In this document: one piece after another, positions 40,127-62,460 of the stretch
Layout of the letters: each line of letters starts with the position of its first letter
How positions within the stretch are numbered: the stretch's first letter is position 1
The notes under the pieces: model-generated
Told to the model about the DNA's origin: nothing
Database searches by the model: none
The model's input: only the letters and a program-made list of their open reading frames with translations
Translations under genes and position numbers: made by a program
Source: Corallococcus exiguus
GTDB taxonomy: Bacteria; Myxococcota; Myxococcia; Myxococcales; Myxococcaceae
Reading direction: 5' to 3' (one strand)
Length of the DNA stretch: 64,000 nucleotides
Assembly (NCBI RefSeq): GCF_013155175.1
Contig: NZ_JABJTS010000010.1

Positions 40127-40279
40127 CCTACCGCCAATACTTCCGAGGGGTTACGCCCCACCTGCCCTGTGGATACCGTACCCTGCTGCGTCCAGGCGCG
40201 TCCAGACCAGTCCACTCGACTGCGTTACCGCTGCGTTACTGCGCAGCAGGCAACGGCGAGGACTCAGCAACGGGCTCCC

Positions 40280-41220: not shown

Positions 41221-43068
41221 TTACTCAAACTCGCTCACCGCCCTCACGTATTCGCTCGTGAAGATACGGCCATTGGAGGGTGAGTCGTTTCCGGGCTCGC
41301 GTGCCATTCCTCGTTCCCCGTCTTTCACGTCGTAGACCTCCAGGCAGACAGGAAAACTGTCGCCCTTTGGCGTAGTCGCCGAGGTGAGTCGCCCGTAAAC
41401 GCGGTCTCGCACGATTAGCCGACCAGACAGAACTGTCCCGTGCGGCATTTCCTCCCAATCGCCGTACAAGAACACCTGGGCAGGGCCTTCCCGAACAGAA
41501 ATGAATTGCGGGCGGTCACGGGTGAAAACGGCTTCGTGCCTGTCTCCAATGTCGATGCCCAGCTTCGCCATGGCCTTCACAGCACCCTTTGGGCACGGCT
41601 CCGGAGGTGGTGCCGGACGCACCTGCGGCCCTGGGCAGCCGAGCGCTGTGCAAGCCGCCGCCATTCCGACAGCACGGGCCATGACGCTCATGCCCTTCTT
41701 CGTGGGCTTCGAGGGGAGCTGAAGGGGCTGCGTCTCTTTCGGCTGCGTCGTCACGGTGGCTGAAACCTCCTGGAGCGTCGCGGGGAGAGCGACGGCCGCA
41801 GCAGTGGCCTCCGGCCCGGTGGGAGCTGCGGCGCGGTCAGCTTGAGGCGACTTGCCAGAGGGCGCTACTTCCTGACGGGTGGGGACTGGCCCTGCGACGC
41901 GCGACATCCCGAGGCCCCACGCCGCCCCTGACAGGACGAGCACCACCGCGAGCGCCGCCCAGGCGCGGAAGGCCCCACGCTGCGCAGGCGTCACACGCAC
42001 GGTCGTCGCGGGCGGCGGTGTCTCATCCGCAGCAGCCGCGTCCTCCGCTGGCACCTGTTTCTGGGGAATGCGTTTGCCGCGACGCGGGCGGTGTCGGGGT
42101 TGGTGCCGCCACTGCTCGAAGCTGTCGATGTCCTCTCCTTCCGTCGTCGCGGAATCCTCGTCGTAGGCGTCGCAGAGCGGCACGTCCCACGTCTCGTCCG
42201 CACCGCGCAGCGCCTGCTCCAGCAACTCGCAGAGAGCCTGGGCGCTGGGCGTGCGCGCCTCGGGCGTCTTCTCCAGGAGCTGCAAGCACACGTCGCTCAG
42301 CGCCCGAGGCACCCGCTCGTTCTCCTCGTGCGGCGGTGTGGGAGGGCTGGAGAGAATCGCCTCCGTCAAGCTGGCGCCGTCCTCGCCGTCAAAGGGGAAG
42401 CGCCCCGTCAGCAGCCGGTAGGTGACGAGTCCCAGCGCCCACAAGTCGTCCGCCGGCCCCGCTGTGTAACGGGCGTCCCTTGCCTCAAGGTGAGCACGCA
42501 GGAAGCGCCACGCCTCCGGGGAGCGGTAGTCCACCGTCCCGGGCGGGAGAATGTCCGCCGTCAGCTCGCGCGCGCCCGTGTAGTCGCCGATGCCGAAGTC
42601 CACCAGCTTGGCCAGGCCGTCCGAGGCGCGCACCATGACGTTGGCCTCCTTCACGTCCCGGTGCACCACCCCATCCGCGTGGGCAGCGGCGAGCGCCCGT
42701 GCCACGCCCAGCAGCACGCGCGTCACCTGCCGCGCCGTGGGGTTCTCCGCGTCGGCCCACGCGTCCAGCTGACGCCCTTCCACGTACTCCGTAACGATGA
42801 CGATGAATTGAGGCTGGGCCACCGGCCAGTAGCCATGGCCCAGAATCCGCACCACGTTGGGGTGATGCAGGCGAGTGAGGATGGAAACTTCGCGCTCCGC
42901 CCTCTCGCCTACGCGCGGCAGGTGCAGCAGCTTCAGAGCGAAGCGCTGGCCCTCGCAGTGCGCGAGGTACACCGTGCCGAAGCCGCCCTGCCCCAGCTGG
43001 CGCTCCACCGTGTAGCCCAGCACCTGGGCCCCAGGAGACAGCACGGCCGGAGGTGGCCCCCGCATCAT
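41221..43068 (-). CDS. Ser/Thr protein kinase, single-pass membrane, with extracytoplasmic Cys-containing C-terminal domain
   Basis: Gly loop LGQGGFGTVY. VAIK-type FALKLL. Catalytic loop HRDVKEANVMV. DFG VDFGIG. APE SPEAW. Pro-rich linker then TM 'ALAVVLVLSGAAWGL'. C-terminal about 200 aa with 4 Cys. Confidence 0.9.
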   Translation of the reverse strand: MMRGPPPAVLSPGAQVLGYTVERQLGQGGFGTVYLAHCEGQRFALKLLHLPRVGERAEREVSILTRLHHPNVVRILGHGYWPVAQPQFIVIVTEYVEGRQLDAWADAENPTARQVTRVLLGVARALAAAHADGVVHRDVKEANVMVRASDGLAKLVDFGIGDYTGARELTADILPPGTVDYRSPEAWRFLRAHLEARDARYTAGPADDLWALGLVTYRLLTGRFPFDGEDGASLTEAILSSPPTPPHEENERVPRALSDVCLQLLEKTPEARTPSAQALCELLEQALRGADETWDVPLCDAYDEDSATTEGEDIDSFEQWRHQPRHRPRRGKRIPQKQVPAEDAAAADETPPPATTVRVTPAQRGAFRAWAALAVVLVLSGAAWGLGMSRVAGPVPTRQEVAPSGKSPQADRAAAPTGPEATAAAVALPATLQEVSATVTTQPKETQPLQLPSKPTKKGMSVMARAVGMAAACTALGCPGPQVRPAPPPEPCPKGAVKAMAKLGIDIGDRHEAVFTRDRPQFISVREGPAQVFLYGDWEEMPHGTVLSGRLIVRDRVYGRLTSATTPKGDSFPVCLEVYDVKDGERGMAREPGNDSPSNGRIFTSEYVRAVSEFE

Positions 43069-43262
43069 GGCGACCTTCTTTCGGGCTCCCAGGCCTCTCG
43101 CATGCGGCGTCCTCCCAGCGGGGCGCGGACCCTACCAGAAGCGCGAGAAGCCCGGGAATCCCTCCCTCTGGCTGCACTCTCCAGAAAGGACTCAGGGAGT
43201 CCATTGTATTTCGCACAACCTCCAGCATTCACTCTTAGCGAACCTTCGGTTACGCTTCCGCC

Positions 43263-43604
43263 ATGGCGCGCCCCTCCTCGCAGCCGGCCCATCCCCTCGC
43301 CAGCACCATTGGTGACGCCGCGCGAGCGGCACGCACCCGCCTGGGCCTCACCCAGGCCGAAATGGCCCAGCGCGTGGGCCTCGCGCATGCCGTCTACAGC
43401 CGCATGGAGCGAGGCCGCATGCTTCCCCGAGTCTCCACGCTCCAACGCCTGTGCGGCGCGCTGGGCGTCACCCCGGACGAACTGATGGGCCACACGCCCC
43501 CTTCCGACGACTTGCCTGCGCGGCACCAGCTCCTCCTGCGTGTGCGCACCCTGGAGGAGCCCCAGGTGCGGGCGCTGCTGCTGTTGCTTCCCGAGTCCCG
43601 GTAG
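43263..43604 (+). CDS. XRE-family HTH transcriptional regulator (paralogue 1)
   Basis: 'LGLTQAEMAQRVGLAHAVYSRMERGRMLPRVSTLQRLCGALGVTPDELMG' Cro/C1-type HTH. Confidence 0.75.
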   Translation: MARPSSQPAHPLASTIGDAARAARTRLGLTQAEMAQRVGLAHAVYSRMERGRMLPRVSTLQRLCGALGVTPDELMGHTPPSDDLPARHQLLLRVRTLEEPQVRALLLLLPESR

Positions 43605-43631
43605 CGTGCCCTCGGCTACGCTGCGCCCGCC

Positions 43632-43991
43632 ATGAATGAGGAACTCGGCATCACCATCGGCACGGAGGCCCGCGCCGCCCGCCAGCACCTGGGCCTTACG
43701 CAGGCCGAAGTCGCGGAGCGCGTTGGGCTGGTGCACCCCGTCTACAACCGCCTGGAGCGCGGGAAGATGCTTCCCAGCGTCCCCTCCCTCTACCGCCTCT
43801 GCCGGGAGCTGCGGGTGTCGCCCGAGAAGCTGATGGGCCTGACGCCCACGGGCGACGTGCGCAAGGCCACGAAGCCCAAGCCCAAGGAAGAGGACGCCCC
43901 GGAGCTGCGGCGCCTCCTCCACCTCGCGCGCAAGCTGGACGCGGAGGACCTCGCGGCCCTCCTCCACGTCGCCTCGGCCCTGGCGCGCTGA
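43632..43991 (+). CDS. XRE-family HTH transcriptional regulator (paralogue 2, tandem duplicate)
   Basis: 'LGLTQAEVAERVGLVHPVYNRLERGKMLPSVPSLYRLCRELRVSPEKLMG'. About 60% identical to paralogue 1 over the HTH. C-terminal K/E-rich tail. Confidence 0.75.
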   Translation: MNEELGITIGTEARAARQHLGLTQAEVAERVGLVHPVYNRLERGKMLPSVPSLYRLCRELRVSPEKLMGLTPTGDVRKATKPKPKEEDAPELRRLLHLARKLDAEDLAALLHVASALAR

Positions 43992-43995
43992 AGCC

Positions 43996-45165
43996 CTACT
44001 CCCGCTTCAAGCCCTCCAACTCGTGGGCCTCCAGACCCTCGGGGAAGAAGCGCTCCTCGCCGAACTCCACCTCGTCGCGAAGGACGCTGCCCTCCGCCAG
44101 CACCTGGGCCCATTCCGCTGCGGCTTCCTGCCGGCCGTAGCCCGGGTGCCGCCTCGCCAGGGCGACTCGCATCGCGTCGCGCATGTCCGCCGCCGTGGCA
44201 AATCGCTCCTCGGGTTTGGCGCGCAACGCGACATGCAGCATCGCCTTCACGTCCGGAGATAGTGTGGCCACGGCCTCCTCGACGTCCTCCGGTCCGAAGC
44301 TCGCCAGCAGCACCTGCATTTGCGTGAGGGGCAGCGAAGGGAGGATTTCAGGCTGGAGGTGGACCAGCCCCTTGAGCGGACCCGGCACGTCCTCGACGTC
44401 GAAGAGGTGCTTGCCGGTGAAGAGTTCCACCAGCAGCACGCCCAGGCTGAAGACATCGGAGCGCGGAGTCAGGGGCTGCCGCGTCAGGTACTCCGGCGAG
44501 GCATACGCCACGTCGCCCCGGACGAGGCTCGCGGGCGACTCCTCGCGGCCCACCACCAGCGAGTAGGCCGCACCGAAGTTCGTCAGCTTCACCTCGCCTT
44601 GCGTGCCCACGTAGACATGCCGGGGGTTGACGTCGCGGTGGATGATGCCCAGCGACTTGCCGTCCGCGTCCGTCAGCGTGTGCGCGTGGTGCAGGGCCTC
44701 CGCGAGTTCCGCGCCGACGTAGAGGGCGAAGGCCTCGGAGACAGGCCGGCCGCGCGCCACCCCCGCACTCACCAGCGTCTCCAGCGAAGGGCCGTCCACA
44801 TACTCCATGACGGCGTGCAGCGCGCCCTTGTGCACCTTGCGGTGAAACACGGTGGCGATGGCGGGGTGGCGCAGACGGAAGGCCAGCTGAATCTCCTCCC
44901 CCAGCCGCGTGCGCTGCATGAAGGTGGAGGGGTTCGCCAGCCGCCGCACGAAGCAATAGCTGGGCAGCTTGTTGCCGCGCTCCGTGAAGCGCTGGGCCAG
45001 CATCAGCACCTCGCCCGTCTCCATCAGCACCAGCTCGCGGACGGCTTCGTAGCGGATGCCGTCGATGGTGAAGAGGAGCAGGGGCCTCTCAGGCGTCGGC
45101 GGAAGCTGCCTGCGGCGCGCGGAGGCTTCGGTGCGCGCCAGGTCATCGGTTGTCGTGTCGGGCAT
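43996..45165 (-). CDS. Protein-kinase-fold protein, predicted pseudokinase
   Basis: Kinase-like core with degenerate catalytic residues: catalytic loop 'HRDVNPRHV' (canonical HRDxKxxN has K→N and N→H), 'DFG' replaced by 'NFG', no clean GxGxxG. APE (ASPEY) retained. Confidence 0.75.
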   Translation of the reverse strand: MPDTTTDDLARTEASARRRQLPPTPERPLLLFTIDGIRYEAVRELVLMETGEVLMLAQRFTERGNKLPSYCFVRRLANPSTFMQRTRLGEEIQLAFRLRHPAIATVFHRKVHKGALHAVMEYVDGPSLETLVSAGVARGRPVSEAFALYVGAELAEALHHAHTLTDADGKSLGIIHRDVNPRHVYVGTQGEVKLTNFGAAYSLVVGREESPASLVRGDVAYASPEYLTRQPLTPRSDVFSLGVLLVELFTGKHLFDVEDVPGPLKGLVHLQPEILPSLPLTQMQVLLASFGPEDVEEAVATLSPDVKAMLHVALRAKPEERFATAADMRDAMRVALARRHPGYGRQEAAAEWAQVLAEGSVLRDEVEFGEERFFPEGLEAHELEGLKRE

Positions 45166-46108: not shown

Positions 46109-46675
46109 TCAGAAGCCGAGCCGCGCCAGGGAGGCCGCGAGCGCCGGGTGCATGGCGCGCCACTCCGGCATCGAGCGCAGCGTGTCGAGGAAGCGCCAGA
46201 CGGCGGCGAGCCGCTGCGCGTCCGTGCTGCCCTTTGGCTCCGAGTGGAAGAGGCCGCGCACGGGCTCCAATTGGCTGCCGCTCACGAGGCTCGGCCACTG
46301 GCAGTGCGGCGCGTCCCCGAAGGAGCCACCCCAGGCGAGGCCCGCGCTGCGCGTCTCCTCGCCAAGAATGGCGTAGGCAGGACCATCCCAGCGCGGCTGA
46401 AGTCCCGGGCGGTTCACGTCCGCATCGCGGCAGAAGTCGTTCGCCAGCCCGTAGTTGTGCGCGGAGAGTCCTTCCGGCGCCGCGCGCCCACCCTCTCCCT
46501 TCAGGTAGCGCAGGTGCAGCACGCGCTGCTCGGCGAAGGTGGAGTAGCCGCGCGTGGCGACGTAGTCCGCGCCTCGCGCTCGGCAACGGGCGATGACTTC
46601 CCCCATCACCGCCTGGAAGGGCGGATAGAGGGGCTTCAAGTCGAGGCGGGAGAAGAGTTCAGGGTTGGGAATCAT
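46109..46675 (-). CDS. Phage endolysin, peptidase M15 (L-alanyl-D-glutamate / D-Ala-D-Ala carboxypeptidase-like)
   Basis: 'SAHNYGLANDF' (H-x6-D zinc ligands of the M15/VanY fold) and a later His. 188 aa. Position at the end of the tail module. Confidence 0.65.
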   Translation of the reverse strand: MIPNPELFSRLDLKPLYPPFQAVMGEVIARCRARGADYVATRGYSTFAEQRVLHLRYLKGEGGRAAPEGLSAHNYGLANDFCRDADVNRPGLQPRWDGPAYAILGEETRSAGLAWGGSFGDAPHCQWPSLVSGSQLEPVRGLFHSEPKGSTDAQRLAAVWRFLDTLRSMPEWRAMHPALAASLARLGF

Positions 46676-46715
46676 CCCCCACTGAATGGGGGCGGGTTTC
46701 GACGTGTGGCGTGAG

Positions 46716-53247: not shown

Positions 53248-53673
53248 CTACACCGCGATGGGCGCGCCCTGGCCGGCAAGGGTGGCTGAGAAGGTGACGA
53301 CGTCCGTGGAACTGCGGCCCTCCTCGTAGGACGTCACCTTCACCGGGTAGCGGAAGCCTTGCGTGCCCATGGGGGCCGTCTCGTCCTCCACGATGGTGAA
53401 GAAGACGGTGGCGTCGGTCTCGAAGGCGTCACGCAGCACTTGTTGGGGCGCGCTGCCCTTGAAGACGTGGCCGGAGAGCGGAATGGAGAAGGACTTCCAG
53501 GTGCCCTTTGTGCGCTTGTACCCGTCACCGCCGAAGTAGTTGGCGTCCACGGTGTCCTTCGCGCGGTTGACGGGCGCCTCCAGCACGCCGTCCAGCGCGT
53601 CCGCTTCCACGGGCGCGGTGTCGGTGGCGCGGATGTAGAGCTTGTCGAAGAAGGCCTCTCGGGGTTCGGGCAT
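53248..53673 (-). CDS. Phage major tail (tube) protein
   Basis: 141 aa beta-rich protein (…YKRTKGTWKSFSIPLSGHVFKGS…) in the canonical position. Size and composition fit TP901-1/GTA gp9-type tube proteins. Confidence 0.5.
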   Translation of the reverse strand: MPEPREAFFDKLYIRATDTAPVEADALDGVLEAPVNRAKDTVDANYFGGDGYKRTKGTWKSFSIPLSGHVFKGSAPQQVLRDAFETDATVFFTIVEDETAPMGTQGFRYPVKVTSYEEGRSSTDVVTFSATLAGQGAPIAV

Positions 53674-53687
53674 GGTGGTGGTTCCAG

Positions 53688-54089
53688 TCAGTGGGAGGGA
53701 AAGCGCTGCGCCAGGAAGTCCTTCAGGACGGCAGCAACGCGGCGACGAGCGCTGCCCCGAGCGCGACGGAAGGACTTGCGAAGAAAGTGCGGCGGCGGAT
53801 TGAAAAGCTGCGCGCCCCAGTGCCAGCCTTCATGAATGGGGCCGGCGGCCGGGTGCACGTAGCCTGCCGTCCACGTCGTGGAGAGGCGCTGGCTCAGGTT
53901 GTGGAGGGGGCCGCTCAAGAAGGCGCTATCGCGCAGGTGGCCCTCGCCCACTGGCACGAGGAAGAGGGAGTAATCCAGCGCGAGGCGGGCAATGTCCCGG
54001 CAGGGCGCATCCAGCGCACGCAGCACTTTGGCGGGAGAGCGGCGCAGGCGCTCCAGCCTCACCACATCAACTCTGAGTCGGACGGGCAT
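53688..54089 (-). CDS. Phage neck/tail-completion protein (hypothetical)
   Basis: 133 aa basic protein. 15-nt gap to major tail gene. Borders the low-GC insertion. Confidence 0.4.
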   Translation of the reverse strand: MPVRLRVDVVRLERLRRSPAKVLRALDAPCRDIARLALDYSLFLVPVGEGHLRDSAFLSGPLHNLSQRLSTTWTAGYVHPAAGPIHEGWHWGAQLFNPPPHFLRKSFRRARGSARRRVAAVLKDFLAQRFPSH

Positions 54090-54167
54090 CTACTACTTCT
54101 ATGGGGGTGCTCTCCGCAACTGGCGCATCAGTGAGCCCCAAGCAACAAGGCAGCTTTAACTTCCCGT

Positions 54168-54173
54168 TATAAT
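54168..54173 (+). promoter_or_regulatory. Candidate -10 element (TATAAT) for the KAP NTPase gene
   Basis: 'cccgttataatggggg' about 45 nt upstream of ATG 54217 in an AT-rich 115-bp spacer. No convincing -35. Confidence 0.3.
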
Positions 54174-54216
54174 GGGGGTGTACGAGCGGACACTGAACCT
54201 ACGAGACTGACCACAA

Positions 54217-56418
54217 ATGCCAACCTCACACCCCTACTCACCTGATCACCCAATTACAAGTCACAAAGAAGACAAACTAAATCGTTCTCCCTTCGCCCAG
54301 CGAATAGCGGACACCATTGCCGAAAGGCTCGATCCAAGCCCGCTGGTCATTGGACTAAACGGCGTCTGGGGTGACGGAAAAACATCGACGCTCCAACTGA
54401 TCGAAGAACGCCTCTCAACAAGAGGCGATGTAATCTGCGTCAAATTCAACCCCTGGTATTTCGAAAATGAGGAAAAGCTTCTTCGAGGCTTTTTCTCCAA
54501 CCTCTCAACGGCTCTCGGCAAGTCACTCAGCACCCGGAAAGAGGCCGCAGGAGAAATCATAAGCAAGTACAGCTGGATATTATCGTTCGCATCAACAACA
54601 CTGACGCTAGACAAGGACACATCAATACAGTCAAATCCCGGAGAAGCAGCCAAGCAACTAGGCCAGCAACTGTCCACAGTGGAACTACCGGCGCTAAGAA
54701 GCAGACTGGAGTCAATCCTTCGTGAAGAAGGGAAACGGATTGTCGTCTTCATCGACGACATCGATCGCCTCGATCGCAGCGAAATCCAGTCAATCTTCAG
54801 ACTCGTCAAGCTCTCGGCCGGGTTTGAAAGAACAACATACCTTCTCGCATTCGATGAAGCCATCGTCTCGGCTTCGCTTGGAGAAAGATACGCCCAAGGC
54901 GGAGCACAAGCCGGCCGCGACTTCCTCGACAAGATAATTCAAGTCCCACTTCGACTCCCACCAGCAGACAAGCTCTCACTGAGGGATATCATTTTCTCGG
55001 GGATCAATGAAGCAATTGAATTGGCAGGAATAGAAGACATCAAGGACGAAGATATCCAATCCTTCCATATCGCTTTTCGTGAAGGACTTGAGCCCCACAT
55101 TACAACCCCCCGCAAAGCAAACTTATTCAAGAACACACTGTCCTTCGCCCTCCCTATACTTAAAGGCGAAGTACATCCGATCGATCAAATATTAATCGAA
55201 GGCATCCGCATCTTCCTTCCAGGCCTCTATTCAGCAATCCTAGAAAACGAAAGCTCTTTCCTCGACAGTTCAGAGCGGCGCTCCAGGGAAGACGCACACA
55301 AGAAGCGCCTGCTTGAGATCATCAACAATGCACTCCCATCAATAAACGAAGCAGGTCGCGAAAAGATAAGGCGTGGCCTCTTGGAAAGAATTTTCCCCCA
55401 ACTTCAATCGGTTTTCGGCAACATCTTCTGGGGAGACAGCAGGCAAGATGCCTGGGAAAAAGAGCAGCGGATATGCTCTCGGCAGTACTTTCATCGATAC
55501 TTCTCATACGCAATTCCAAGTGGAGACGTGTCAGACAGATTCATATCAAATATCATAAAAATTGCAGGAAAACAGCCGGCCGACACCATAAGCAAGTCCA
55601 TGCTTGAACTGGGCGCCCGAGGAGCCGACCGCCTAATTGACAAGCTAAACTCAGTCGTAGACGAACTGGACGAAGTCGAAGCCCTAAATATCGCAGAGGC
55701 GGTCGCCCAATGTGGATCCGTGTTGGCCAGCCAAAACACAGCCCACCATCCGCTCTCCACTGCCTCGCAAGCCGGGATTCTTGTCTACAACCTCCTAAAG
55801 AAATCCCCCAATGGCAACCGACGAAAGATCGCAGCCCAAAAAGTATTGCGAACCGCAGAGCCAATCATATTTGCGGTCGAATGCTTTCGATGGATAAGCC
55901 ACAACAGCGAAACGCCTCTGGAAGATCGAATTCTTGATGACGCCGGACTATCCGAATCCGGCAAGATTGTCGCAGAACGAATAAGCAACGAGGCCAAGGG
56001 CGATAAACTTTGGATAAAATACCCAAACCATACGGGCTCGCTCTTCTTCTTCTGGAAGACCTACGGAAATCCCGAAGAGCCAACGCTACACCTGCGAGAA
56101 CACTTCAAGGCAGACCACAAAAGAGCCACCGAGTTTATTCAGGCCTATATGCCAACAGCATTTCTGATCATGTCCGGAATACTAAGAAAATCAGAACTCA
56201 ACCTGAATGCCTATAAATCCATCAAGAGCGTCTTTGACCCGGACGAACTAATCTATTTCCTTAAAATGACGCACGGGGCTGATATCGATCACTCCTCCAC
56301 ATCAAGAGCATCCGAGTCTCCAGAAAGGAGTGCTGCAGTTCAATTCGTCCGTATTCACAAAGCAGCGGCCACAGGTGCCGAAGACAACGACGAGGACGCA
56401 GATGAGACTGAAACTTGA
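54217..56418 (+). CDS. KAP-family P-loop NTPase (PifA-like), low-GC acquired gene inside prophage
   Basis: Walker A 'GLNGVWGDGKTS'. Walker B 'IVVFIDDIDRLD'. 733 aa with the long alpha-helical C-terminal region typical of KAP NTPases. Codon usage AT-rich (AAA/AAT/TTT/ATA frequent), unlike every neighbouring gene. Opposite strand to the phage structural genes. Confidence 0.9.
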   Translation: MPTSHPYSPDHPITSHKEDKLNRSPFAQRIADTIAERLDPSPLVIGLNGVWGDGKTSTLQLIEERLSTRGDVICVKFNPWYFENEEKLLRGFFSNLSTALGKSLSTRKEAAGEIISKYSWILSFASTTLTLDKDTSIQSNPGEAAKQLGQQLSTVELPALRSRLESILREEGKRIVVFIDDIDRLDRSEIQSIFRLVKLSAGFERTTYLLAFDEAIVSASLGERYAQGGAQAGRDFLDKIIQVPLRLPPADKLSLRDIIFSGINEAIELAGIEDIKDEDIQSFHIAFREGLEPHITTPRKANLFKNTLSFALPILKGEVHPIDQILIEGIRIFLPGLYSAILENESSFLDSSERRSREDAHKKRLLEIINNALPSINEAGREKIRRGLLERIFPQLQSVFGNIFWGDSRQDAWEKEQRICSRQYFHRYFSYAIPSGDVSDRFISNIIKIAGKQPADTISKSMLELGARGADRLIDKLNSVVDELDEVEALNIAEAVAQCGSVLASQNTAHHPLSTASQAGILVYNLLKKSPNGNRRKIAAQKVLRTAEPIIFAVECFRWISHNSETPLEDRILDDAGLSESGKIVAERISNEAKGDKLWIKYPNHTGSLFFFWKTYGNPEEPTLHLREHFKADHKRATEFIQAYMPTAFLIMSGILRKSELNLNAYKSIKSVFDPDELIYFLKMTHGADIDHSSTSRASESPERSAAVQFVRIHKAAATGAEDNDEDADETET

Positions 56419-56446
56419 GGGCCATGTAAATCCAATCCACAAATGC

Positions 56447-56884
56447 TTAAATATTAACCATGACGAAGAATCCAATTATCACATTAAACACCCAACAATG
56501 CCGGTCTGCGCCATCTGTCCCCAAATAGGCCGGTGCGCTTCCCTCCGCGCGTACAACAGAGCAAGAGGCGAGTGCCTCCAGGTGGAGGGCACTAAAGACA
56601 GCCTGAGCGAGTCGCTGCCCGCCCTCGAAGTCCTCCCGTGCTGAACGCACTCGCACCTGACAGCCTGGCGCAATGTACGCCGCGCGGCGCAGCCCCATGT
56701 ACGCCTGTGGTCCCGCGCCGCCTGTCGCCAACAGGGCCACGGCCCGGTCCGGCACTTCGCCGTCGGCCTCAGGCATCGGAGCCGTGAAAAGGTTTGCACT
56801 TGTAGCTGGAGCGCGCATCAACCCTATGCCTGCTGCCTCCAATACATCCGCGAGTTCCAAAGCGATGTCACGCATCAGAACCAC
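56447..56884 (-). CDS. Phage head-tail joining / tail-completion protein (hypothetical)
   Basis: 145 aa. 10-nt overlap with next neck gene. The 3' end runs into the low-GC insertion (C-terminal …FFVMVNI). Confidence 0.45.
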   Translation of the reverse strand: MVLMRDIALELADVLEAAGIGLMRAPATSANLFTAPMPEADGEVPDRAVALLATGGAGPQAYMGLRRAAYIAPGCQVRVRSAREDFEGGQRLAQAVFSALHLEALASCSVVRAEGSAPAYLGTDGADRHCWVFNVIIGFFVMVNI

Positions 56885-57198
56885 ACCTTACGGAAACGCA
56901 CCGCACCCGATCCGTCCACTGACTCGTCCACGGCTACGGGGCGCCGCGCACGGTTGAAGTCCGCGACGTCCTCACCCGGCAACCAGACACGGTGCTGTAG
57001 GGTGACTGGCGCGTCCGTGTAGACAACATGCGCAGCTAGGTGCTCGTTACCATTGGCGTCGCGGATGAGACGCCGGAATGGCTGCACGCGCGCCCGCGTC
57101 GTCAATTGGGGCCCGAGCGTCGGCTTGCCGTAGGCGTCTCGTCCCGTCAGAACGGCATAGGTGATCAACTGACGGAAGGTGTCCGAAGGTGAGGCCAT
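56875..57198 (-). CDS. Phage head-closure / head-tail adaptor protein
   Basis: 107 aa. Position and size consistent with HK97 gp9/gp10-like neck proteins. Confidence 0.45.
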   Translation of the reverse strand: MASPSDTFRQLITYAVLTGRDAYGKPTLGPQLTTRARVQPFRRLIRDANGNEHLAAHVVYTDAPVTLQHRVWLPGEDVADFNRARRPVAVDESVDGSGAVRFRKVWF

Positions 57199-57857
57199 CA
57201 GATCACCCGGTGAATGACGTAGGGCGCGAGCAACGCCTGCGCGACACCAGGGATAGGACTCTTGCCCTCAGCCTTCGCGGCAAAGTAGCTCACCGACCAA
57301 TCCCCGATGGACTCGCTGGCGACCATCGCGTCCACACCGCGCGAGCGGTACAGCTGCACTGCCGTGAGAACGGTGGCCTCCTGCACGTCCTCCGGCAACG
57401 TCACCACGCGCGACGCATCCAGGGCCCGCTGCCCCGGCGTCACGAAGCCTCCGTCGTAGACGACGCGGATGCCCTCCTCGCTGCCCTGGAAGCTGTCTAC
57501 CACCTCCACCACCAGCCCTCCCGAGCGCGCCGTCTCCCGCCAAGCTCCGCGCCTGCGGTACAGCATGCCGGCGTCCGCCAGCTTCCCAAGGCTCTCGTAC
57601 TCCTCAGCCGGAACGAAGGCACCGCCCTCCCAGACGCCCACCACCAGGACAACGGGCGGGCGCTCCAGCAGCAGCAATGGGCGCCCGTAGCCAGCCGGGT
57701 ATTCCACGAGCCCCTGGCCGTGCTCGAAGACCCGGCCGCAGTAGCCAGCAACGGCCCGGCTCGCCGCCGTGACGAGCGACTCCAGACGCGGCGTCACCGC
57801 TACGCCCAGGTCATCCGCCACGGTGGCAGCCAGGCACAGGTCAGCAGGATGCGCCAT
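57198..57857 (-). CDS. Phage head-tail connector-like protein
   Basis: 219 aa. 1-nt overlap with downstream gene. Sits between capsid-decoration-like ORF and the adaptor. Confidence 0.45.
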   Translation of the reverse strand: MAHPADLCLAATVADDLGVAVTPRLESLVTAASRAVAGYCGRVFEHGQGLVEYPAGYGRPLLLLERPPVVLVVGVWEGGAFVPAEEYESLGKLADAGMLYRRRGAWRETARSGGLVVEVVDSFQGSEEGIRVVYDGGFVTPGQRALDASRVVTLPEDVQEATVLTAVQLYRSRGVDAMVASESIGDWSVSYFAAKAEGKSPIPGVAQALLAPYVIHRVI

Positions 57858-58323: not shown

Positions 58324-59547
58324 TCAGTTGCTGCCCCAGCTCAGGTCCTTCACCACGACGCCGGACTGCCGGTGGCGCATGGCCAAGTCATGCTTGGTGA
58401 TGGCACGCAGCACCGTCTGGTCCGTGGAGATGCCGGACACCAGATGCCCGCCGCGCGTGAAGGCTCCGTTGGGGAAGACTTCGATTTCCAGCGCCATGGA
58501 CTCGCCGATGAGAACCTCGGCCATGTCTACGAGATACAGCTCCGAGCAGTTCTTGCCCGAGCCCAGCGTCTCCGGAATCTGGTTGGTGACGAAGAAGGGC
58601 ACGTTGCGCAGCGTGCCGCGCTCCACCATCTCCCGCTCCAGGGCGTTGGTGCCCTCTCCGCCAGGACCCGGAGCATCGAGAATGGCCGTCTCCGCGTTGG
58701 GGGACATCAGCCACACCGGCTGCACCATGGGCACGTTGGCCTTCTTCAGCTTCTTCTTCGCCTTGTTCAGCTCCTTCTTCATCTCGCCCAACGTGGGCGC
58801 GCCCGCCGTGGCCACCGTCTCCGCGTAGACGTGGGCCGCGTCCACCTGGTTGCGGATGCCGCGCGGCTCCAGCTGCGTGCCGCTGCCTCGCAGGAAGGCC
58901 ATGTCCTCCCGCAGAGCCATGACGTTCAGCAGGTCGTTGCGGATGAACTCCTCGGCGTTGATGGACGCGTTGCGGATGAGGTCGTTGGGCACTGCCGTCA
59001 GCGCCGTGAGCTTCTTCTCGGACAGGGACACCGTGTCCGTGCCCGGCTCCGACTCCTGGATGGTGCTCGTCTCGCCGCCGTAGAAGGCCGTGCCCGTGCT
59101 GGACTGCCGGTCGAAGGTGAGCGAGGCCCCGATGGGGATGACGCGGGCGCCGGCCTGTCGCACCACGGCCTTGTGGCGCAGCAGCTCGATGAACTCGGAG
59201 GCGAACTGGGGATGCACCAGGGAGCCCATGCCCGAGTAGTTGCCCTGGGAGAGGGCCTTGCTCACCACCTCGTCGCCCCAGCCCTTCAGCACGTCCACCA
59301 CGTTGCGCCCTTCCATGCGCGCGACGGCCTTCGCCTTCACGAAGCGGATGAGGTTGAGGCCCGTGCCCTCCGTCATGTGCTTGCCGGTAATGGGCGAGCG
59401 GCGCGGTTCCTCGGGCGCGGTCTCGGCCGCCTTGGAGCCCAGCAGGGCCGCATAGCTGTCGCGGTGCCCCTTGGACTGCTCCACCAGTTGCGCGGCCACC
59501 AGCGGGCCCAGCGACTTCGCCATCTCCTGCATCTGCTCGGGGGTCAT
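58324..59547 (-). CDS. Phage major capsid protein, HK97 family
   Basis: 407 aa. N-terminal delta-domain-like helical region then HK97-fold core (…RNVPFFVTNQIPETLG…ELYLVDMAEVLIGESMALEIEVFPN…). 4-nt overlap with protease gene. Confidence 0.9.
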   Translation of the reverse strand: MTPEQMQEMAKSLGPLVAAQLVEQSKGHRDSYAALLGSKAAETAPEEPRRSPITGKHMTEGTGLNLIRFVKAKAVARMEGRNVVDVLKGWGDEVVSKALSQGNYSGMGSLVHPQFASEFIELLRHKAVVRQAGARVIPIGASLTFDRQSSTGTAFYGGETSTIQESEPGTDTVSLSEKKLTALTAVPNDLIRNASINAEEFIRNDLLNVMALREDMAFLRGSGTQLEPRGIRNQVDAAHVYAETVATAGAPTLGEMKKELNKAKKKLKKANVPMVQPVWLMSPNAETAILDAPGPGGEGTNALEREMVERGTLRNVPFFVTNQIPETLGSGKNCSELYLVDMAEVLIGESMALEIEVFPNGAFTRGGHLVSGISTDQTVLRAITKHDLAMRHRQSGVVVKDLSWGSN

Positions 59548-60230
59548 GCCTTCTCCTGGAGGTGCTGAAACAGGGCCCGCGCCGTGTGAGCGGCAAGGGC
59601 GTGGGTGTCGGACTCGGAAAGGGAGGGAGGTGCGGCGGGCGGCGTGGCCTTGCGCTTCTTCCGCGACGTGCGGCCCAGCGCCTTCACCACCGCGTCCGCG
59701 ATGTCGCGAATGAGGGCGGCGCGCTCGTCGGAGTGCTTCTTCAGCCGCACCGCGCGCTGGTTGCCGGGAATCGTGACGACGGAGATTTCGAGAAGCTCCT
59801 GCTCGTCGCAGTCGTAACCGCCGCGCTCATTCTCGTGGTAGCGCAGCATGCGGTAGCGCACGCTCACCGCGTTAAGGATGCCCTTCTCCACCTTGGACTC
59901 GACGCGTCGGGCAAACTCATCGTCTTGGTCGAACTCGATGTCCACCAAGAGTGCGTCGCCCTGCACGTAGGCGCGGCCCTTGCCGATGGGCAGGACGTCC
60001 GTGCGGCCCGCGCCGAACAGCCCGCCAGAGCTATCGTCGTGCATGTAGAGGACGACGGGATTGGCGGCGTATGCATCGAGCCGCCAGCCCTGGATGGACA
60101 GCCGGTCATTGTAGCGGTCGAAGTCGGCGTCGTTCGCACGGAAGGTGAAGACCTTTGGCTGGCCCTCAACAGGTGACGGCGCATCCTGCTGAGCGACAAG
60201 GCGACGAGTTCTTGAAAGAGGTGCAGGCAT
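59544..60230 (-). CDS. HK97-family prohead protease (peptidase S78)
   Basis: '…RLSIQGWRLDAYAANPVVLYMHD…LLEISVVTIPGN' conserved prohead-protease core with Ser/His catalytic region. 228 aa. Confidence 0.85.
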   Translation of the reverse strand: MPAPLSRTRRLVAQQDAPSPVEGQPKVFTFRANDADFDRYNDRLSIQGWRLDAYAANPVVLYMHDDSSGGLFGAGRTDVLPIGKGRAYVQGDALLVDIEFDQDDEFARRVESKVEKGILNAVSVRYRMLRYHENERGGYDCDEQELLEISVVTIPGNQRAVRLKKHSDERAALIRDIADAVVKALGRTSRKKRKATPPAAPPSLSESDTHALAAHTARALFQHLQEKA

Positions 60231-60465
60231 TCACCTTTTCAATGGGGGCAGTATTAGAACTCCCCAAGAGCAAGCCCAATCCCCCCAGACAACGAGCCCG
60301 CTGGAAGCAGCCCTTCGCCAATACCACTGGTATATTGGCGCCCCAACACAACACAGGGTCAATCCAACCCCACCGCAAACATCACTTACGCAGATTATGT
60401 ATCCATGCTTCTCGCCATTACTAGGCCTGATTGACTTTCGTACGTCGCTCTTATTTCATCGAGCA

Positions 60466-61134
60466 ATGACCAGACCGACCGCTCTGATCCTCACTGCGTC
60501 ACTGCTAACCAGCGCATGCTTCGGGCATATTCCTCCTGAAGGCACTCAAGTGACGATGCCTCCCACAGAGACAACTCCACCGTCACGCGCCAAACAAGAG
60601 GTTGCTGCTCCCCCCGCGACAGGCAATAAGGCAGTCGACGAGGCACAGGCTTTTGTTTCGGACGCCTTCAACCATTGCGATAATGTCACCCTCAACACTG
60701 CATACCAGCAACTACTGATCACGAAGATTGCAACAAGAAGGAAAAACCTTGGACTTCTTGCAACAACAATAGTTGGCGTCGCCGGCAGCATTGTTACCGC
60801 AGCCCTCCTTGGATCCAAGGCAGCCAGCGACGGGAATTCAGAGAAGGCCACCATTGTCGGGGCAAGCTCAGCAGGCGCGACAGCAATCACAGGCGTAGTC
60901 TCTATCTTTATCGTTGGCAGCGGAGCAGACGATCGCGTCAAGCAGATGTCAGACAACAAAAACCGAATCGACCAGGAGGTCGACGACCTCTCGAACTCGT
61001 GCAAAGATATCAACGCCAACAACGCAGCCCAGTGCACACAAAAAGCTAAACGCGTTAAGAATCGCTGCGGAATCGCAGAGACTCAGCTACCCTACGAAGT
61101 CGAAAACCAGCCCTCATTCCTACCGACCAACTAG
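60466..61134 (+). CDS. Low-GC lipoprotein with internal TM helix, inserted between portal and protease genes (moron; candidate superinfection-exclusion protein)
   Basis: ATG at 60466 (MTRPTALILTASLLTSAC = signal + lipobox). Central TM 'LLATTIVGVAGSIVTAALLG' and second hydrophobic segment. AT-rich codons. Plus strand, opposite to phage genes. Tabulated ORF starts 23 codons earlier. Confidence 0.5.
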   Translation: MTRPTALILTASLLTSACFGHIPPEGTQVTMPPTETTPPSRAKQEVAAPPATGNKAVDEAQAFVSDAFNHCDNVTLNTAYQQLLITKIATRRKNLGLLATTIVGVAGSIVTAALLGSKAASDGNSEKATIVGASSAGATAITGVVSIFIVGSGADDRVKQMSDNKNRIDQEVDDLSNSCKDINANNAAQCTQKAKRVKNRCGIAETQLPYEVENQPSFLPTN

Positions 61135-61176
61135 CCATTAGATGCCATCCGATTTTTAGTGTGGGCTGGCTTGGGA

Positions 61177-62460
61177 TTATGGAGCTACTTGTCCCGGCAT
61201 GGGCAACGGATAGCCCTGCCGGTTAGAGTCCGGTTCGAATCCAGCCAATGCTCGCCACTCGTCATAGCTAAAGGCCTCCGGCATGGCGCTCATGACGCGT
61301 AACTGGTGCTCGCGGTCCGCCGGCACAGGGCTGTCGTAGTCAAGAATGGCATCCGCGCCGCCGAACAGAGGCATCAGCCGCATCTGGTACTCGGTACGGA
61401 GGAACTCCATGCGCGGGAGCGTCGCCTGCTCGGCGAGGTTCTCCCGCGCCGCGAAGGCAGTCGCCTTGTTCGAGCTGGAGATGTCGCCCACGATTTCGGG
61501 CGGGACTCGAAACGTCATCCTCACGAAGTCCATGAGGAACTTCCGCAATTCCACCAACTGCATGTCGCGGAAGCTGGTGTCCAGGCGCGCGAACGTGACC
61601 CGGCCGCTGGTGAGCAGCAGCTTGCCCGCCTTGTCCGGCCCCTGATGCTCGCGGGCCAGCGACTCCTTGAAGGCCTTCGCCCCTGCGCTGTTCGCATCCG
61701 TCAGCCCCTCGATGGATGCGATGGCTGGCGGAAGCATGTTGTTCCAGAAGCTCGCCCGGAGGAACCGCGCCACGAACTCGTCCGTGTCCAGTTCGTCCCC
61801 AAGCGCGAAGGCGGGACCGACTCCTCGCCCAAGCGGATCCTCCGGGTCCAGGTTTCGCAGATGGAGCACATCCGCCGCTGGAATCTCCCGCATCACGCCG
61901 CCCACGGCGACCGTGAAGGTCCGCAGTTCACGCGGGACGTCCATCGCAGGCAGCCGAGTGACGAGGTTCGGAGGCACCGGCCAGAATCCCACCGGGAAGC
62001 CCGCCACACGTTCCAGCACCAAGAATGCCTCGCCGACCAGGTCCAAGTACACCTGCACCAGCTTTGTGACTGAGCGGCCCGTCAGGTAGTCGTTCGGGTC
62101 CGCGAGCATCCGAAGAATTGGATGGTCCGGCACCTCCTGGACTTCGCCCGCGTCCAGCATGGACTTCAACCGCATGGCGCGGACCTCGCGCGTCGCGCTG
62201 CGAAGGGCGTAGTCCTTCACCGGCTGGCCCTCCCGCGAGACGCGCCGGTACACACGCCAGTTCACCCCGGCCACAGAGTCCGCGACCACGTCCACAATCG
62301 CCCGGAGCCAGGGCATTTCGCGGTACGCCGCCAGTAGTTGCGAGGTGCCTCGGCGCGGCGGCGCCTGCTGCCAGCGCGCCAGCTCCAGCCCCGTTCCCTG
62401 TCGCGGAGGACGCGCCACCGCCGCCTTCATCCGGTCCCACAATCCCAAGACACGCCTCAC
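61177..62460 (-). CDS. Phage portal protein, HK97 family
   Basis: 427 aa with conserved portal core (…YLDLVGEAFLVLERV…TFTVAVGG…). 4-nt overlap with TerL. Confidence 0.9.
   Translation of the reverse strand: MRRVLGLWDRMKAAVARPPRQGTGLELARWQQAPPRRGTSQLLAAYREMPWLRAIVDVVADSVAGVNWRVYRRVSREGQPVKDYALRSATREVRAMRLKSMLDAGEVQEVPDHPILRMLADPNDYLTGRSVTKLVQVYLDLVGEAFLVLERVAGFPVGFWPVPPNLVTRLPAMDVPRELRTFTVAVGGVMREIPAADVLHLRNLDPEDPLGRGVGPAFALGDELDTDEFVARFLRASFWNNMLPPAIASIEGLTDANSAGAKAFKESLAREHQGPDKAGKLLLTSGRVTFARLDTSFRDMQLVELRKFLMDFVRMTFRVPPEIVGDISSSNKATAFAARENLAEQATLPRMEFLRTEYQMRLMPLFGGADAILDYDSPVPADREHQLRVMSAMPEAFSYDEWRALAGFEPDSNRQGYPLPMPGQVAP

What the first reader, a model, noticed from the sequence alone, without database searches (positions are those of the whole stretch)
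54100..56446. Low-GC KAP-family NTPase (PifA-like) inserted into the neck region of a high-GC prophage
A 733-aa P-loop NTPase with textbook KAP Walker A/B motifs sits on the opposite strand between phage neck and major-tail genes. Its own AT-rich promoter-like spacer and its codon usage are completely unlike the surrounding DNA, by eye about 20 GC points lower. The KAP family includes F-plasmid PifA, which aborts T7 infection. A prophage-borne KAP gene in this 'moron' position is a strong candidate for a phage-exclusion or abortive-infection determinant carried by the phage. Single-gene KAP defence modules in myxobacteria are undescribed. Its compositional signature says it was acquired very recently from a low-GC donor.
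Basis: partly seen in the sequence, partly recalled or inferred. Interest (0 to 1): 0.72.

Follow-up and report, generated by a model that had tools for sequence, protein, structure and literature searches.

The report
PifA-like defence gene in prophage hotspot
A Corallococcus prophage carries a distant relative of the F-plasmid phage-exclusion gene pifA at one of two fixed slots in its head-tail operon, and in every related prophage examined those slots hold different low-GC genes, many of them known anti-phage genes, so the gene is one ordinary member of a swappable defence-cargo pool rather than a one-off recent insertion.

Summary
ORF 54217-56418 (+) encodes a 733-aa KAP P-loop NTPase with invariant Walker A and B motifs. 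Its GC is 0.50 and GC3 0.53, against 0.68 and 0.8-0.95 around it. It lies antisense between the head-tail connector and tail-completion genes of an HK97-like Corallococcus prophage.

It belongs to the PifA family at profile level, in both halves. It is only 26% identical to F PifA, and only over the NTPase domain. Its nearest relative among 5.8 billion proteins is 47% identical.

The main new result is comparative. In 25 related myxobacterial prophages, synteny breaks at the same two sites: connector|tail-completion and portal|protease. Every element carries different, mostly antisense cargo of 0.47-0.55 GC there. The cargo includes Shedu, Mrr, Schlafen, a PARIS-like pair, PD-T4-6 kinases, a TIR effector, GmrSD/FRG and many unknowns.

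Both sites abut a repeated promoter-like phage element.

"Very recent acquisition from a low-GC donor" is not supported. Low GC is shared by the whole cargo pool and by KAP relatives in other high-GC hosts.

Verdict: a new member of known kinds, both single-gene KAP/PifA defence and prophage defence hotspot. The defence function is inferred, not shown.

The parts
54217..56418 (+). PifA-family KAP P-loop NTPase gene (733 aa; NCBI WP_121778359.1, Corallococcus)
   Evidence: ORF. Pfam KAP_NTPase 1.8e-47. PADLOC PifA 3.3e-78. The exact protein is in NCBI as 'NTPase KAP [Corallococcus sp. AB032C]'.
54283..55143 (+). KAP NTPase domain (residues 23-309). It includes Walker A (residues 46-57, nt 54352-54387) and Walker B (residues 175-185, nt 54739-54771).
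55249..56415 (+). All-alpha-helical C-terminal domain (residues 345-733), the family-specific putative sensor/effector part
   Evidence: AlphaFold2 model, pLDDT 83. It matches the PADLOC PifA profile on its own at 2.5e-17. It gives 1407 hits among representative proteins, nearly always at residues ~345-740 of 700-780-aa proteins. Identity to homologues is 30%, against 55% for the N-terminal domain. No distinct structural match was found.
54128..54216 (+). Cargo-specific upstream spacer with a perfect TATAAT at 54168-54173
   Evidence: Sequence. Not conserved in related prophages. No full two-hexamer promoter was called. GC 0.52.
54087..54127 (-). Conserved repeated phage element (core CCCCCATAGAAG at 54096-54107), immediately upstream of the Neck1 ATG. 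It forms the sharp operon-downstream edge of hotspot A.
   Evidence: nhmmer E 3.3e-6. There are 5-6 copies per related prophage, always just upstream of gene starts.
54059..56500 (.). Low-GC tract (maximum-likelihood limits), that is, the cassette occupying hotspot A
   Evidence: Synteny with 7 related prophages breaks at about 54107/54127 and 56585/56594.
56447..56884 (-). Head-tail connector gene flanking hotspot A. Its 3' third lies in the variable, low-GC zone.
   Evidence: PHROG 2595. It is only 52-70% identical among close relatives whose neighbouring genes are 88-94% identical. The C-terminal third is the most diverged part. Its codon-adaptation index, 0.32, is the lowest of the structural genes.
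53688..54089 (-). Tail-completion/Neck1 gene, the other flank of hotspot A
   Evidence: PHROG 5. It is conserved and syntenic in all relatives.
60397..61134 (+). Second antisense low-GC cargo gene (245 aa), in hotspot B between portal and protease. It has a probable lipoprotein signal and two transmembrane helices.
   Evidence: No PHROG, Pfam or PADLOC hit.
60228..60257 (-). Second copy of the repeated phage element (core CCCCCATTGAAA at 60237-60248), immediately upstream of the protease ATG. It forms the operon-downstream edge of hotspot B.

Best explanation
The gene is a single-gene anti-phage determinant of the PifA branch of KAP NTPases. A temperate HK97-like siphovirus integrated in Corallococcus carries it as exchangeable cargo.

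Shown:
- The prophage family has two fixed cargo slots, connector|tail-completion and portal|protease.
- Each slot lies directly upstream of a repeated promoter-like phage element.
- Every close relative carries a different low-GC gene or gene pair there, mostly antisense. Many of these belong to recognised defence families.
- The KAP protein is soluble and has two domains: a conserved P-loop NTPase with intact catalytic motifs, and a faster-evolving helical C-terminal domain that is always fused to it.

Inferred:
- In the lysogen the gene is transcribed from its own promoter while the late operon is silent.
- The C-terminal domain recognises a protein of a superinfecting phage, as F PifA responds to T7 gp1.2 and gp10.
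- NTP binding or hydrolysis, and probably ring-type oligomerisation as in the KAP ATPase RdrA, then switch on an effector activity that blocks the infection. For F PifA that activity is membrane leakage and abortive infection.
- When the resident prophage is induced, late transcription running antisense through the cargo may damp its expression and so limit self-targeting.
For: - Family: Pfam KAP 1.8e-47. PADLOC PifA is the best model for the whole protein (3.3e-78) and the only model hit by the C-terminal half (2.5e-17). hhalign of the family profile against F PifA gives 99.4% probability.
- Intact enzyme: Walker A and B are invariant, and conservation runs through the C-terminus. The AlphaFold2 model is confident.
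- Single-gene unit: no conserved partner appears in five other genomic contexts. One relative lies in a Pseudomonas island with a reverse transcriptase, an integrase and an AAA_13 ATPase.
- Hotspot: synteny breaks at the same two sites in 7 genomes and in 25 elements overall. The 69 cargo ORFs fall into 51 clusters.
- Cargo families: SduA/Shedu, Mrr_cat, Schlafen, DUF4435 plus AAA_21 (PARIS-like), PD-T4-6 kinases, a CAP12/Pycsar-type TIR, GmrSD_N/NsnA, FRG/PDC-S15 and Metallophos.
- An outgroup clade has an empty portal|protease junction of 83-85 bp.
- Repeated element at both slot edges.
- Experimental precedent: single-gene KAP NTPases with unknown C-terminal regions protect against phage and need the Walker B motif (PMC13552941). 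F PifA is an abortive-infection system triggered by T7 gp1.2/gp10 (PMC8594841).
- Closest solved fold: RdrA of the RADAR defence system.
Against: - No experiment bears on this protein or on any member of its ~760-aa subfamily.
- Identity to F PifA is 26% over the NTPase domain only. The C-terminal halves compared directly are not significantly similar (E 0.06, against 0.15 for a reversed control).
- The enterococcal KAP defence was reported not to act by abortive infection, so the effector mode cannot be transferred with confidence.
- The primary role of F PifA as a defence has itself been questioned.
- No sigma-70-type promoter or terminator was called for the cassette.
- Over half of the individually scanned cargo proteins (11 of 20) have no annotation, so 'defence hotspot' rests on the annotated minority.
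- Neither the window KAP protein nor F PifA shows a predicted transmembrane helix, so the basis of any membrane effect is unknown.
Confidence: 0.68

Rival explanations
1. The gene is a recent one-off horizontal insertion from a low-GC donor that happens to have landed in the neck region. It has no particular relation to the phage's biology.
For: The compositional break is sharp and large: GC 0.50 against 0.68, codon-adaptation index 0.26 against 0.66. The cassette is unique among the 25 related elements.
Against: - The nearest homologue is only 47% identical, and it is itself a low-GC island in a high-GC myxobacterial-type contig.
- Every related prophage has equally low-GC cargo at the same two positions.
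- The boundary coincides with a conserved phage element.
- The adjoining connector gene is atypical in all relatives.
- No target-site duplication or inverted repeats flank the cassette.
Confidence: 0.07
2. The KAP NTPase serves the phage or host in a role other than defence, for example lysogeny control, signalling, or a toxin-like addiction function. Its PifA likeness is only a shared ATPase scaffold.
For: Authors have suggested that phage exclusion may not be F PifA's primary function. KAP NTPases are a broad family with varied proposed roles. The C-terminal domain has no known fold match. Several cargo genes at the same slot are not obviously defensive, such as ParA-like ATPases.
Against: - The slot is dominated, among annotated cargo, by nucleases and effectors typical of defence.
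- The gene is dispensable for the phage, being absent from all 24 relatives.
- Relatives occur in defence-island-like settings.
- KAP fusions have been shown to be defensive in another phylum.
Confidence: 0.17
3. The gene is an inactive relic, a decaying passenger.
For: It is compositionally foreign and poorly adapted in codon usage. No canonical promoter or Shine-Dalgarno sequence was detected.
Against: The reading frame is uninterrupted over 733 codons in 50%-GC DNA. All 73 family-invariant residues listed, including Walker A and B, are retained. The length is the same as in full-length homologues. The structure model is confident. An identical protein is recorded in more than one Corallococcus record.
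Confidence: 0.05

Closest known systems
PifA of the E. coli F plasmid (phage T7 exclusion protein; PADLOC/DefenseFinder 'PifA')
   Same: - Single polypeptide of nearly the same length (741 against 733 aa).
- N-terminal KAP P-loop NTPase, aligned over residues 30-338.
- Colinear match of both halves to the PifA profile.
- No predicted transmembrane helix in either protein.
- Carried on a mobile element.
   Different: - Only 26% identity, confined to the NTPase domain in pairwise comparison. The profile score is 262 bits, against 963 for F PifA.
- C-terminal halves are not significantly similar when compared directly.
- No pifC-type repressor gene lies upstream (one search compared).
- The carrier is a prophage structural operon in a myxobacterium, not a conjugative plasmid.
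- Trigger and effect are unknown.
Single-gene KAP NTPase defences of Enterococcus and gut Firmicutes (PLoS Biol 2026, PMC13552941)
   Same: A KAP NTPase fused to a large C-terminal region of unknown fold, acting alone. The Walker B motif is required. They are found on mobile DNA.
   Different: Those proteins have transmembrane helices, and this one has none. Their C-terminal regions are described as diverse, and their sequences were not compared with this protein here. One was reported not to act by abortive infection.
RdrA of the RADAR system
   Different: Only ~290-310 residues align, and overall TM-score is 0.25-0.30. RADAR needs the RdrB deaminase, and no partner gene exists in this cassette. 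There is no sequence-level match to any PDB chain.
Defence hotspots of P2-like phages and P4-like satellites (Rousset et al. 2022, PMC9122126) and the classical 'morons' of lambdoid/HK97 phages
   Same: Fixed positions between conserved phage genes carry highly diverse, compositionally distinct accessory genes, many of them anti-phage. The cargo differs even between two copies in one genome.
   Different: - The host phylum is different (Myxococcota).
- Both slots lie inside the head-neck-tail operon.
- The cargo is almost always antisense (48 of 53 proteins of at least 140 aa).
- Each slot abuts a repeated promoter-like phage element.
- The upstream structural gene's 3' end is part of the variable zone.

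Membership tests
KAP family P-loop NTPase (Pfam PF07693) | Match to the family profile above the curated threshold | tested here: met
   162.5 bits against a cut-off of 20, covering profile 1-287/293.
KAP family P-loop NTPase (Pfam PF07693) | Intact Walker A (GxxGxGKT/S) and Walker B (hhhhDD) motifs | tested here: met
   G49-W-G-D-G-K-T-S57 and I175-V-V-F-I-D-D181. Both are invariant or nearly invariant in 44 homologues.
KAP family P-loop NTPase (Pfam PF07693) | Transmembrane helices inserted in the NTPase domain (typical of many members, but not universal) | tested here: not met
   No 19-residue window reaches a Kyte-Doolittle score of 1.6. F PifA also lacks them by the same test. The region where the insert would lie (residues 108-140) is modelled at low confidence and is not hydrophobic.
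PifA (F-plasmid type phage exclusion; PADLOC PDLC02361) | Full-length colinear match to the PifA profile, including the C-terminal domain | tested here: met
   Whole protein: 3.3e-78 over profile 3-657/720. N-terminal half: 5.7e-57. C-terminal half alone: 2.5e-17 over profile 360-657, with no other PADLOC family hit. The score is far below that of F PifA (963 bits).
PifA (F-plasmid type phage exclusion; PADLOC PDLC02361) | Direct similarity to F PifA beyond the NTPase domain | tested here: inconclusive
   BLASTP aligns residues 30-338 only (26% identity). hhalign of the C-terminal profile against the F PifA C-terminus gives E 0.06, against 0.15 for a reversed control.
PifA (F-plasmid type phage exclusion; PADLOC PDLC02361) | Acts alone (single-gene system) | tested here: met
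   The cassette holds one ORF between conserved phage genes. No shared neighbour appears across five other contexts.
PifA (F-plasmid type phage exclusion; PADLOC PDLC02361) | Excludes a phage by abortive infection on sensing specific phage proteins | not testable with these tools
   Needs phage challenge. Known only for F PifA with T7.
Moron (extra gene unit in a phage operon) | Present between genes that are adjacent in related phages, with deviant base composition | tested here: met
   Relatives carry other cargo or a near-empty site (L018, 393 bp). An outgroup has an empty portal|protease junction. GC is 0.50 against 0.68.
Moron (extra gene unit in a phage operon) | Own promoter and terminator | tested here: inconclusive
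   There is a TATAAT at 54168-54173 but no full promoter call. No terminator lies after the stop codon, and the cargo stop is 28 nt from the connector stop.
Prophage defence hotspot (P2/P4 type) | Fixed locus flanked by conserved core genes, with high cargo turnover | tested here: met
   In 25 elements, both sites are always occupied. The 69 cargo ORFs fall into 51 clusters. Two copies in one genome carry different cargo.
Prophage defence hotspot (P2/P4 type) | Cargo enriched in anti-phage systems | tested here: inconclusive
   Many recognised defence families are present. No formal enrichment test against a background was run, and 11 of 20 individually scanned cargo proteins have no hit.
RADAR (RdrA/RdrB) | KAP-type ATPase paired with an adenosine deaminase, RdrB | tested here: not met
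   The fold resembles RdrA, but the cassette has no second gene.
Qat (QatABCD) | QatA KAP ATPase with QatB, QatC and QatD partners | tested here: not met
   QatA profiles match only the NTPase segments (about 82 bits), well below the PifA match. No partner genes are present.

The most novel reading that the evidence does not exclude
The two slots are not passive gaps. Each is defined by a phage-specific repeated promoter or start-associated element that restarts expression of the next structural block. This lets the phage carry any antisense cassette there. It also couples prophage induction to antisense silencing of its own defence cargo, a built-in way of avoiding autoimmunity. On this reading, the more than half of the ~51 cargo families that have no annotation are a reservoir of undescribed myxobacterial defence systems. 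The ~760-aa KAP subfamily would then be a widespread, untested PifA-like sensor-effector.
Probability: 0.3. Interest if true: 0.65.

Novelty: new member of a known kind. Interest (0 to 1): 0.45.

Why it matters
The gene itself would be labelled PifA by standard defence annotation, and prophage-borne defence hotspots are an established idea. The finding is therefore not a new kind of system.

Its value is practical. It identifies a family of Corallococcus and Myxococcus prophages with two precisely delimited cargo slots. These already yield about 50 distinct gene families in 25 elements, most of them unannotated, in a phylum whose phage defences are little studied. The slots could serve as bait for defence-gene discovery.

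The ~760-aa KAP subfamily is large: more than 1300 full-length relatives, and 1407 clusters for its C-terminal domain. It is untested, so one phage-challenge experiment would give it its first functional test.

The comparison also corrects a common inference: a sharp GC drop here marks a shared mobile gene pool, not a recent event.

Tried and rejected
- Insertion scars. Direct and inverted repeat searches across 53600-57200 found only short chance-level matches and no flanking duplication.
- Promoter and terminator scan. Counts were at the level of shuffled controls, with nothing in the spacer.
- Phage records. tblastn against 50,697 phage records gave no phage homologue, only a Salmonella contig with a distant KAP gene. 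BFVD viral structures gave only a giant-virus KAP domain. An IMG/VR scan with the family alignment gave 3 full-length relatives at 39-41% identity among 2.9 million contigs.
- Exact-sequence look-up of the encoding contig failed twice.
- Profile search of PDB sequences gave no hit.
- The afdb50 fold library was unavailable, so the C-terminal fold could not be compared with the AlphaFold model of F PifA.
- Rfam found nothing in 44-64 kb.
- Mx alpha.
- RADAR and Qat membership were considered and rejected because partner genes are absent.
- Transposon- or integron-type capture was considered. No recombinase gene, attC-like repeat or terminal repeat was seen at the slots.
Full report
**1. The observation**

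The ORF at 54217-56418 on the + strand is real and encodes 733 aa. It matches Pfam KAP_NTPase at E 1.8e-47 over residues 23-309.

In a 44-sequence alignment of full-length homologues, Walker A (G49-W-G-D-G-K-T-S57) and Walker B (I175-V-V-F-I-D-D181, then D183-R-L) are invariant or nearly so.

Composition differs sharply from the surroundings:
- GC is 0.496. All 2202-nt windows of the sequence average 0.678 (sd 0.041), so the ORF is at z = -4.5 and is the lowest in the window.
- GC3 is 0.53, against 0.80-0.93 in flanking genes.
- The codon-adaptation index, relative to 22 surrounding genes, is 0.26, against 0.66 (sd 0.13).

PHROG matches identify the neighbours, all on the - strand. In order they are: large terminase, portal, protease, major capsid, head-tail adaptor, two connector proteins, then after the KAP gene the tail-completion/Neck1 protein, major tail protein, tape measure, tail protein and endolysin. 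The description 'opposite strand, between neck and major tail genes of a high-GC prophage' is therefore correct.

The exact protein is in NCBI as an 'NTPase KAP' of Corallococcus sp. AB032C (WP_121778359.1).

**2. Which KAP protein it is**

Among PADLOC models, PifA is by far the best: 3.3e-78, covering residues 5-635 against profile 3-657/720.

Splitting the protein shows this is not only the shared ATPase. The C-terminal half alone (residues 345-733) matches PifA profile positions 360-657 at 2.5e-17 and hits no other PADLOC family.

Against the real F-plasmid PifA (741 aa, taken from an IncF plasmid) the relation is distant:
- Identity is 26% over residues 30-338 only.
- The profile score is 262 bits, against 963 for F PifA.
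- The two C-terminal halves compared directly are not significantly similar.

The protein belongs to a large subfamily of about 760 aa:
- More than 1300 proteins match at E <= 1e-10, at 40-47% identity and full coverage. They come from Ralstonia, Pseudomonas, Burkholderiales, Binatia and many metagenomes.
- The C-terminal domain is found in 1407 representative clusters. It almost always lies at residues ~345-740 of proteins of this size, so the two-domain architecture is fixed.
- The C-terminal domain evolves faster than the NTPase domain (30% against 55% identity to the window protein). That pattern would fit a recognition domain, but this is an inference.

An AlphaFold2 model (pLDDT 83, pTM 0.73) shows a P-loop domain followed by an all-helical C-terminal domain. 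No transmembrane segment is predicted, and none is predicted in F PifA either.

**3. The comparative result that changes the picture**

A scan of one genome per species with the major capsid protein found seven related prophages in Corallococcus and Myxococcus. One is in a record labelled Comamonas.

Nucleotide alignment to the window is colinear at 73-93% identity. It breaks at exactly two places in every one of them:
- Site A lies between the connector and tail-completion genes (window ~54107/54127 to ~56585/56594).
- Site B lies between the portal and protease genes (window ~60250 to ~61189).

At both sites every element has DNA of GC 0.50-0.55 carrying different genes, antisense to the operon.

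An IMG/VR scan with the portal protein added 26 loci. Systematic mapping gave the following:
- In all 25 elements of the close clade (portal at least 85% identical), both sites are occupied by 0.47-0.55 GC cargo. Site A spans 393-2538 bp and site B 902-3775 bp.
- The 69 cargo ORFs fall into 51 sequence clusters.
- The KAP gene is unique to the window.
- Of the 53 cargo proteins of at least 140 aa, 48 are antisense.
- Two copies of the prophage in one C. coralloides genome differ in cargo at both sites.
- A more distant clade (portal 62-67% identical) has only 83-85 bp of 0.70-GC DNA between portal and protease. That is an empty site B.

The cargo includes:
- Shedu SduA-like proteins
- Mrr-type nucleases (3)
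- Schlafen AlbA_2 proteins (3)
- a DUF4435 plus AAA_21/AAA_15 pair (PARIS-like)
- PD-T4-6-type kinases (2)
- a CAP12/Pycsar-type TIR, and a cNMP-binding domain
- GmrSD_N/NsnA plus FRG/PDC-S15
- a metallophosphoesterase
- DUF4145, DUF4062 and DUF4365 proteins
- ParA-like ATPases

Of the 20 proteins scanned one by one, 11 have no hit. Site A, where the KAP gene lies, is therefore one of two defence-cargo hotspots of a prophage family.

**4. Anatomy of the slot**

The operon-downstream edge of each slot is sharp and marked by the same sequence. In the window, the 12-mer CCCCCATWGAAR occurs exactly twice. The copies are at 54096-54107 and 60237-60248, both on the operon strand, just upstream of the Neck1 and protease start codons.

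Aligning all boundaries reveals a ~30-nt element, G.CCA(C/G)TCGCGGAAAG(C/T)GTCCCCAT(A/T)(A/G)A(A/G), ending 9-13 nt before the ATG. A profile of it finds 5-6 copies per related prophage, on both strands, always just upstream of gene starts. It also occurs in the outgroup clade whose site B is empty.

The element is therefore native to the phage and older than the cargo. I read it as a phage-specific promoter or start-associated sequence. On that reading the slots are the gaps between expression units, which would explain why insertions there are tolerated. This is inference; no promoter test was possible.

The operon-upstream edge is diffuse:
- The connector gene next to site A is only 52-70% identical among relatives whose neighbouring genes are 88-94% identical.
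- Its C-terminal third is the most diverged part.
- Its last codons are low-GC.
- It has the lowest codon-adaptation index of the structural genes, 0.32.
- The portal's C-terminal tail next to site B is likewise variable.

Cargo stop codons lie from -4 to +63 nt from the connector stop. No flanking repeats, recombinase gene or terminators were found. Exchange by homologous recombination within the flanking phage genes is the simplest reading.

**5. Recency and donor**

The claim of very recent acquisition from a low-GC donor is not supported:
- The nearest relative among 5.8 billion proteins is 47% identical.
- That relative sits in a contig with myxobacterial paralogue families, as a solitary 0.50-GC gene in 0.68-GC DNA.
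- Another relative is 0.50 GC in 0.66-GC DNA. Members in Ralstonia, Xanthomonas and Pseudomonas are 0.53-0.57 GC.
- All other cargo at both slots shares the same composition.

The low GC is therefore a standing property of a mobile gene pool in high-GC hosts.

**6. Mechanism**

Shown:
- The NTPase motifs are intact.
- The two-domain architecture is fixed, and the C-terminal domain evolves faster than the N-terminal one.
- The cassette holds a single gene.
- It occupies a defence-cargo slot.
- It is antisense to the late operon.

Inferred by analogy:
- Expression in the lysogen comes from a promoter in 54128-54216 (TATAAT at 54168-54173).
- The C-terminal domain recognises a protein of an incoming phage, as F PifA responds to T7 gp1.2 and gp10 and causes membrane depolarisation (PMC8594841).
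- Activation is NTP-dependent and probably involves ring assembly, as in RdrA.
- The infection is then blocked. Whether this is abortive is open, because an enterococcal single-gene KAP defence that needs its Walker B motif was reported not to be abortive (PMC13552941).
- Late transcripts reading antisense through the cargo might reduce its expression during the resident phage's own lytic growth.

**7. Comparison and novelty**

The gene is a new, distant member of the PifA/KAP single-gene defence class. Standard tools would label it PifA.

Prophage hotspots of defence genes are established for P2 and P4 (PMC9122126), and morons in HK97/lambda structural operons are classical (my own knowledge).

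Four things are less usual here:
- the host phylum
- two slots inside the head-neck-tail operon with almost uniformly antisense cargo
- the repeated element at each slot edge
- the rarity of this KAP family in catalogued viruses: none in 50,697 phage records, and 3 full-length relatives in 2.9 million IMG/VR contigs

A recent myxophage survey does not mention KAP or PifA in its text.

I rate the finding as a new member of a known kind, of moderate interest. Its main value is as an entry point to a cargo reservoir.

Noticed in passing
window 60136-61316 (ORF 60397-61134, +): A second low-GC (0.53-0.54) antisense cargo gene lies between portal and protease. It encodes 245 aa with a lipoprotein-like signal (…LLTSAC…) and two predicted transmembrane helices (residues 117-140 and 153-174). 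It has no PHROG, Pfam or PADLOC hit. It is a candidate membrane superinfection-exclusion protein.
   Followed up: partly
window 54087-54127 (-) and 60228-60257 (-), with a weak copy at 46674-46709 (-); 5-6 copies in each of L003-L037: A repeated ~30-nt element, G.CCA(C/G)TCGCGGAAAG(C/T)GTCCCCAT(A/T)(A/G)A(A/G), ends 9-13 nt before start codons on both strands of the prophage family. It also occurs in relatives with an empty site B. It looks like a phage-specific promoter or start-associated sequence, and its function is untested.
   Followed up: partly
window 56447-56884 (-): The connector gene next to the hotspot is far more diverged among close prophages (52-70% identity) than its neighbours (88-94%). 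It also has the lowest codon-adaptation index (0.32) of the structural genes. Either it is exchanged together with the cargo or it is under diversifying selection.
   Followed up: partly
L004 and L005 (Corallococcus coralloides KYC2213, two loci in one chromosome): One genome carries two copies of this prophage type, both ~90% identical to the window across the shared structural genes, with different cargo at both slots.
   Followed up: partly
L007-L009 and L020-L036, compared with window 58324-59547: This is mosaicism. In the Myxococcus-type subclade the major capsid protein is only ~33% identical to the window's, while terminase, portal, adaptor and tail genes stay at 75-93%. L022 keeps the Corallococcus-type capsid (87%).
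   Followed up: no
L008 (BNCN01000010.1, labelled Comamonas sp. KCTC 72670): A record named Comamonas carries a prophage colinear with, and 73-81% identical to, the Corallococcus/Myxococcus elements. The record is probably mislabelled or contaminated.
   Followed up: no
L020 16215-18516 (site A): This is a two-gene cargo of 317 aa and 454 aa. It is assigned to the DUF4435 and AAA_21/AAA_15 hits by gene size and by reading the sequences. The pooled scan does not say which member matched. If the assignment is right, it is a PARIS-like pair at the slot that holds the KAP gene in the window.
   Followed up: partly
L018 8114-8506 (site A): This is the smallest site A seen: 393 bp at GC 0.59, with one 104-aa ORF on the operon strand. 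It is the closest thing to an empty slot in the close clade.
   Followed up: partly
window 40038-40136 (+) and 41221-45165: A tRNA-SeC gene lies about 6 kb from the endolysin end of the prophage. Between them are two genes (615 and 389 aa, - strand) that match a PHROG serine-threonine kinase family (E 4e-37 and 8e-50). The tRNA could be the attachment site and the kinases could be prophage cargo. Neither was tested.
   Followed up: no
L012 6903-12286 (Pseudomonas protegens CP027756): A 41%-identical KAP homologue starts 84 nt downstream of a 1004-aa reverse-transcriptase gene. It lies in an island with an integrase fragment, an AAA_13 ATPase and a DUF4238 protein. The two genes could be functionally linked, or this could simply be a defence island.
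   Followed up: no
L029 6738-9794 and L033 6753-9959: In the outgroup clade, about 3 kb between the connector and the Neck1-like gene is at native GC (0.66-0.68) and carries two or three sense-strand ORFs (and a 649-aa antisense ORF in L029). These could be extra structural genes or ameliorated cargo.
   Followed up: no
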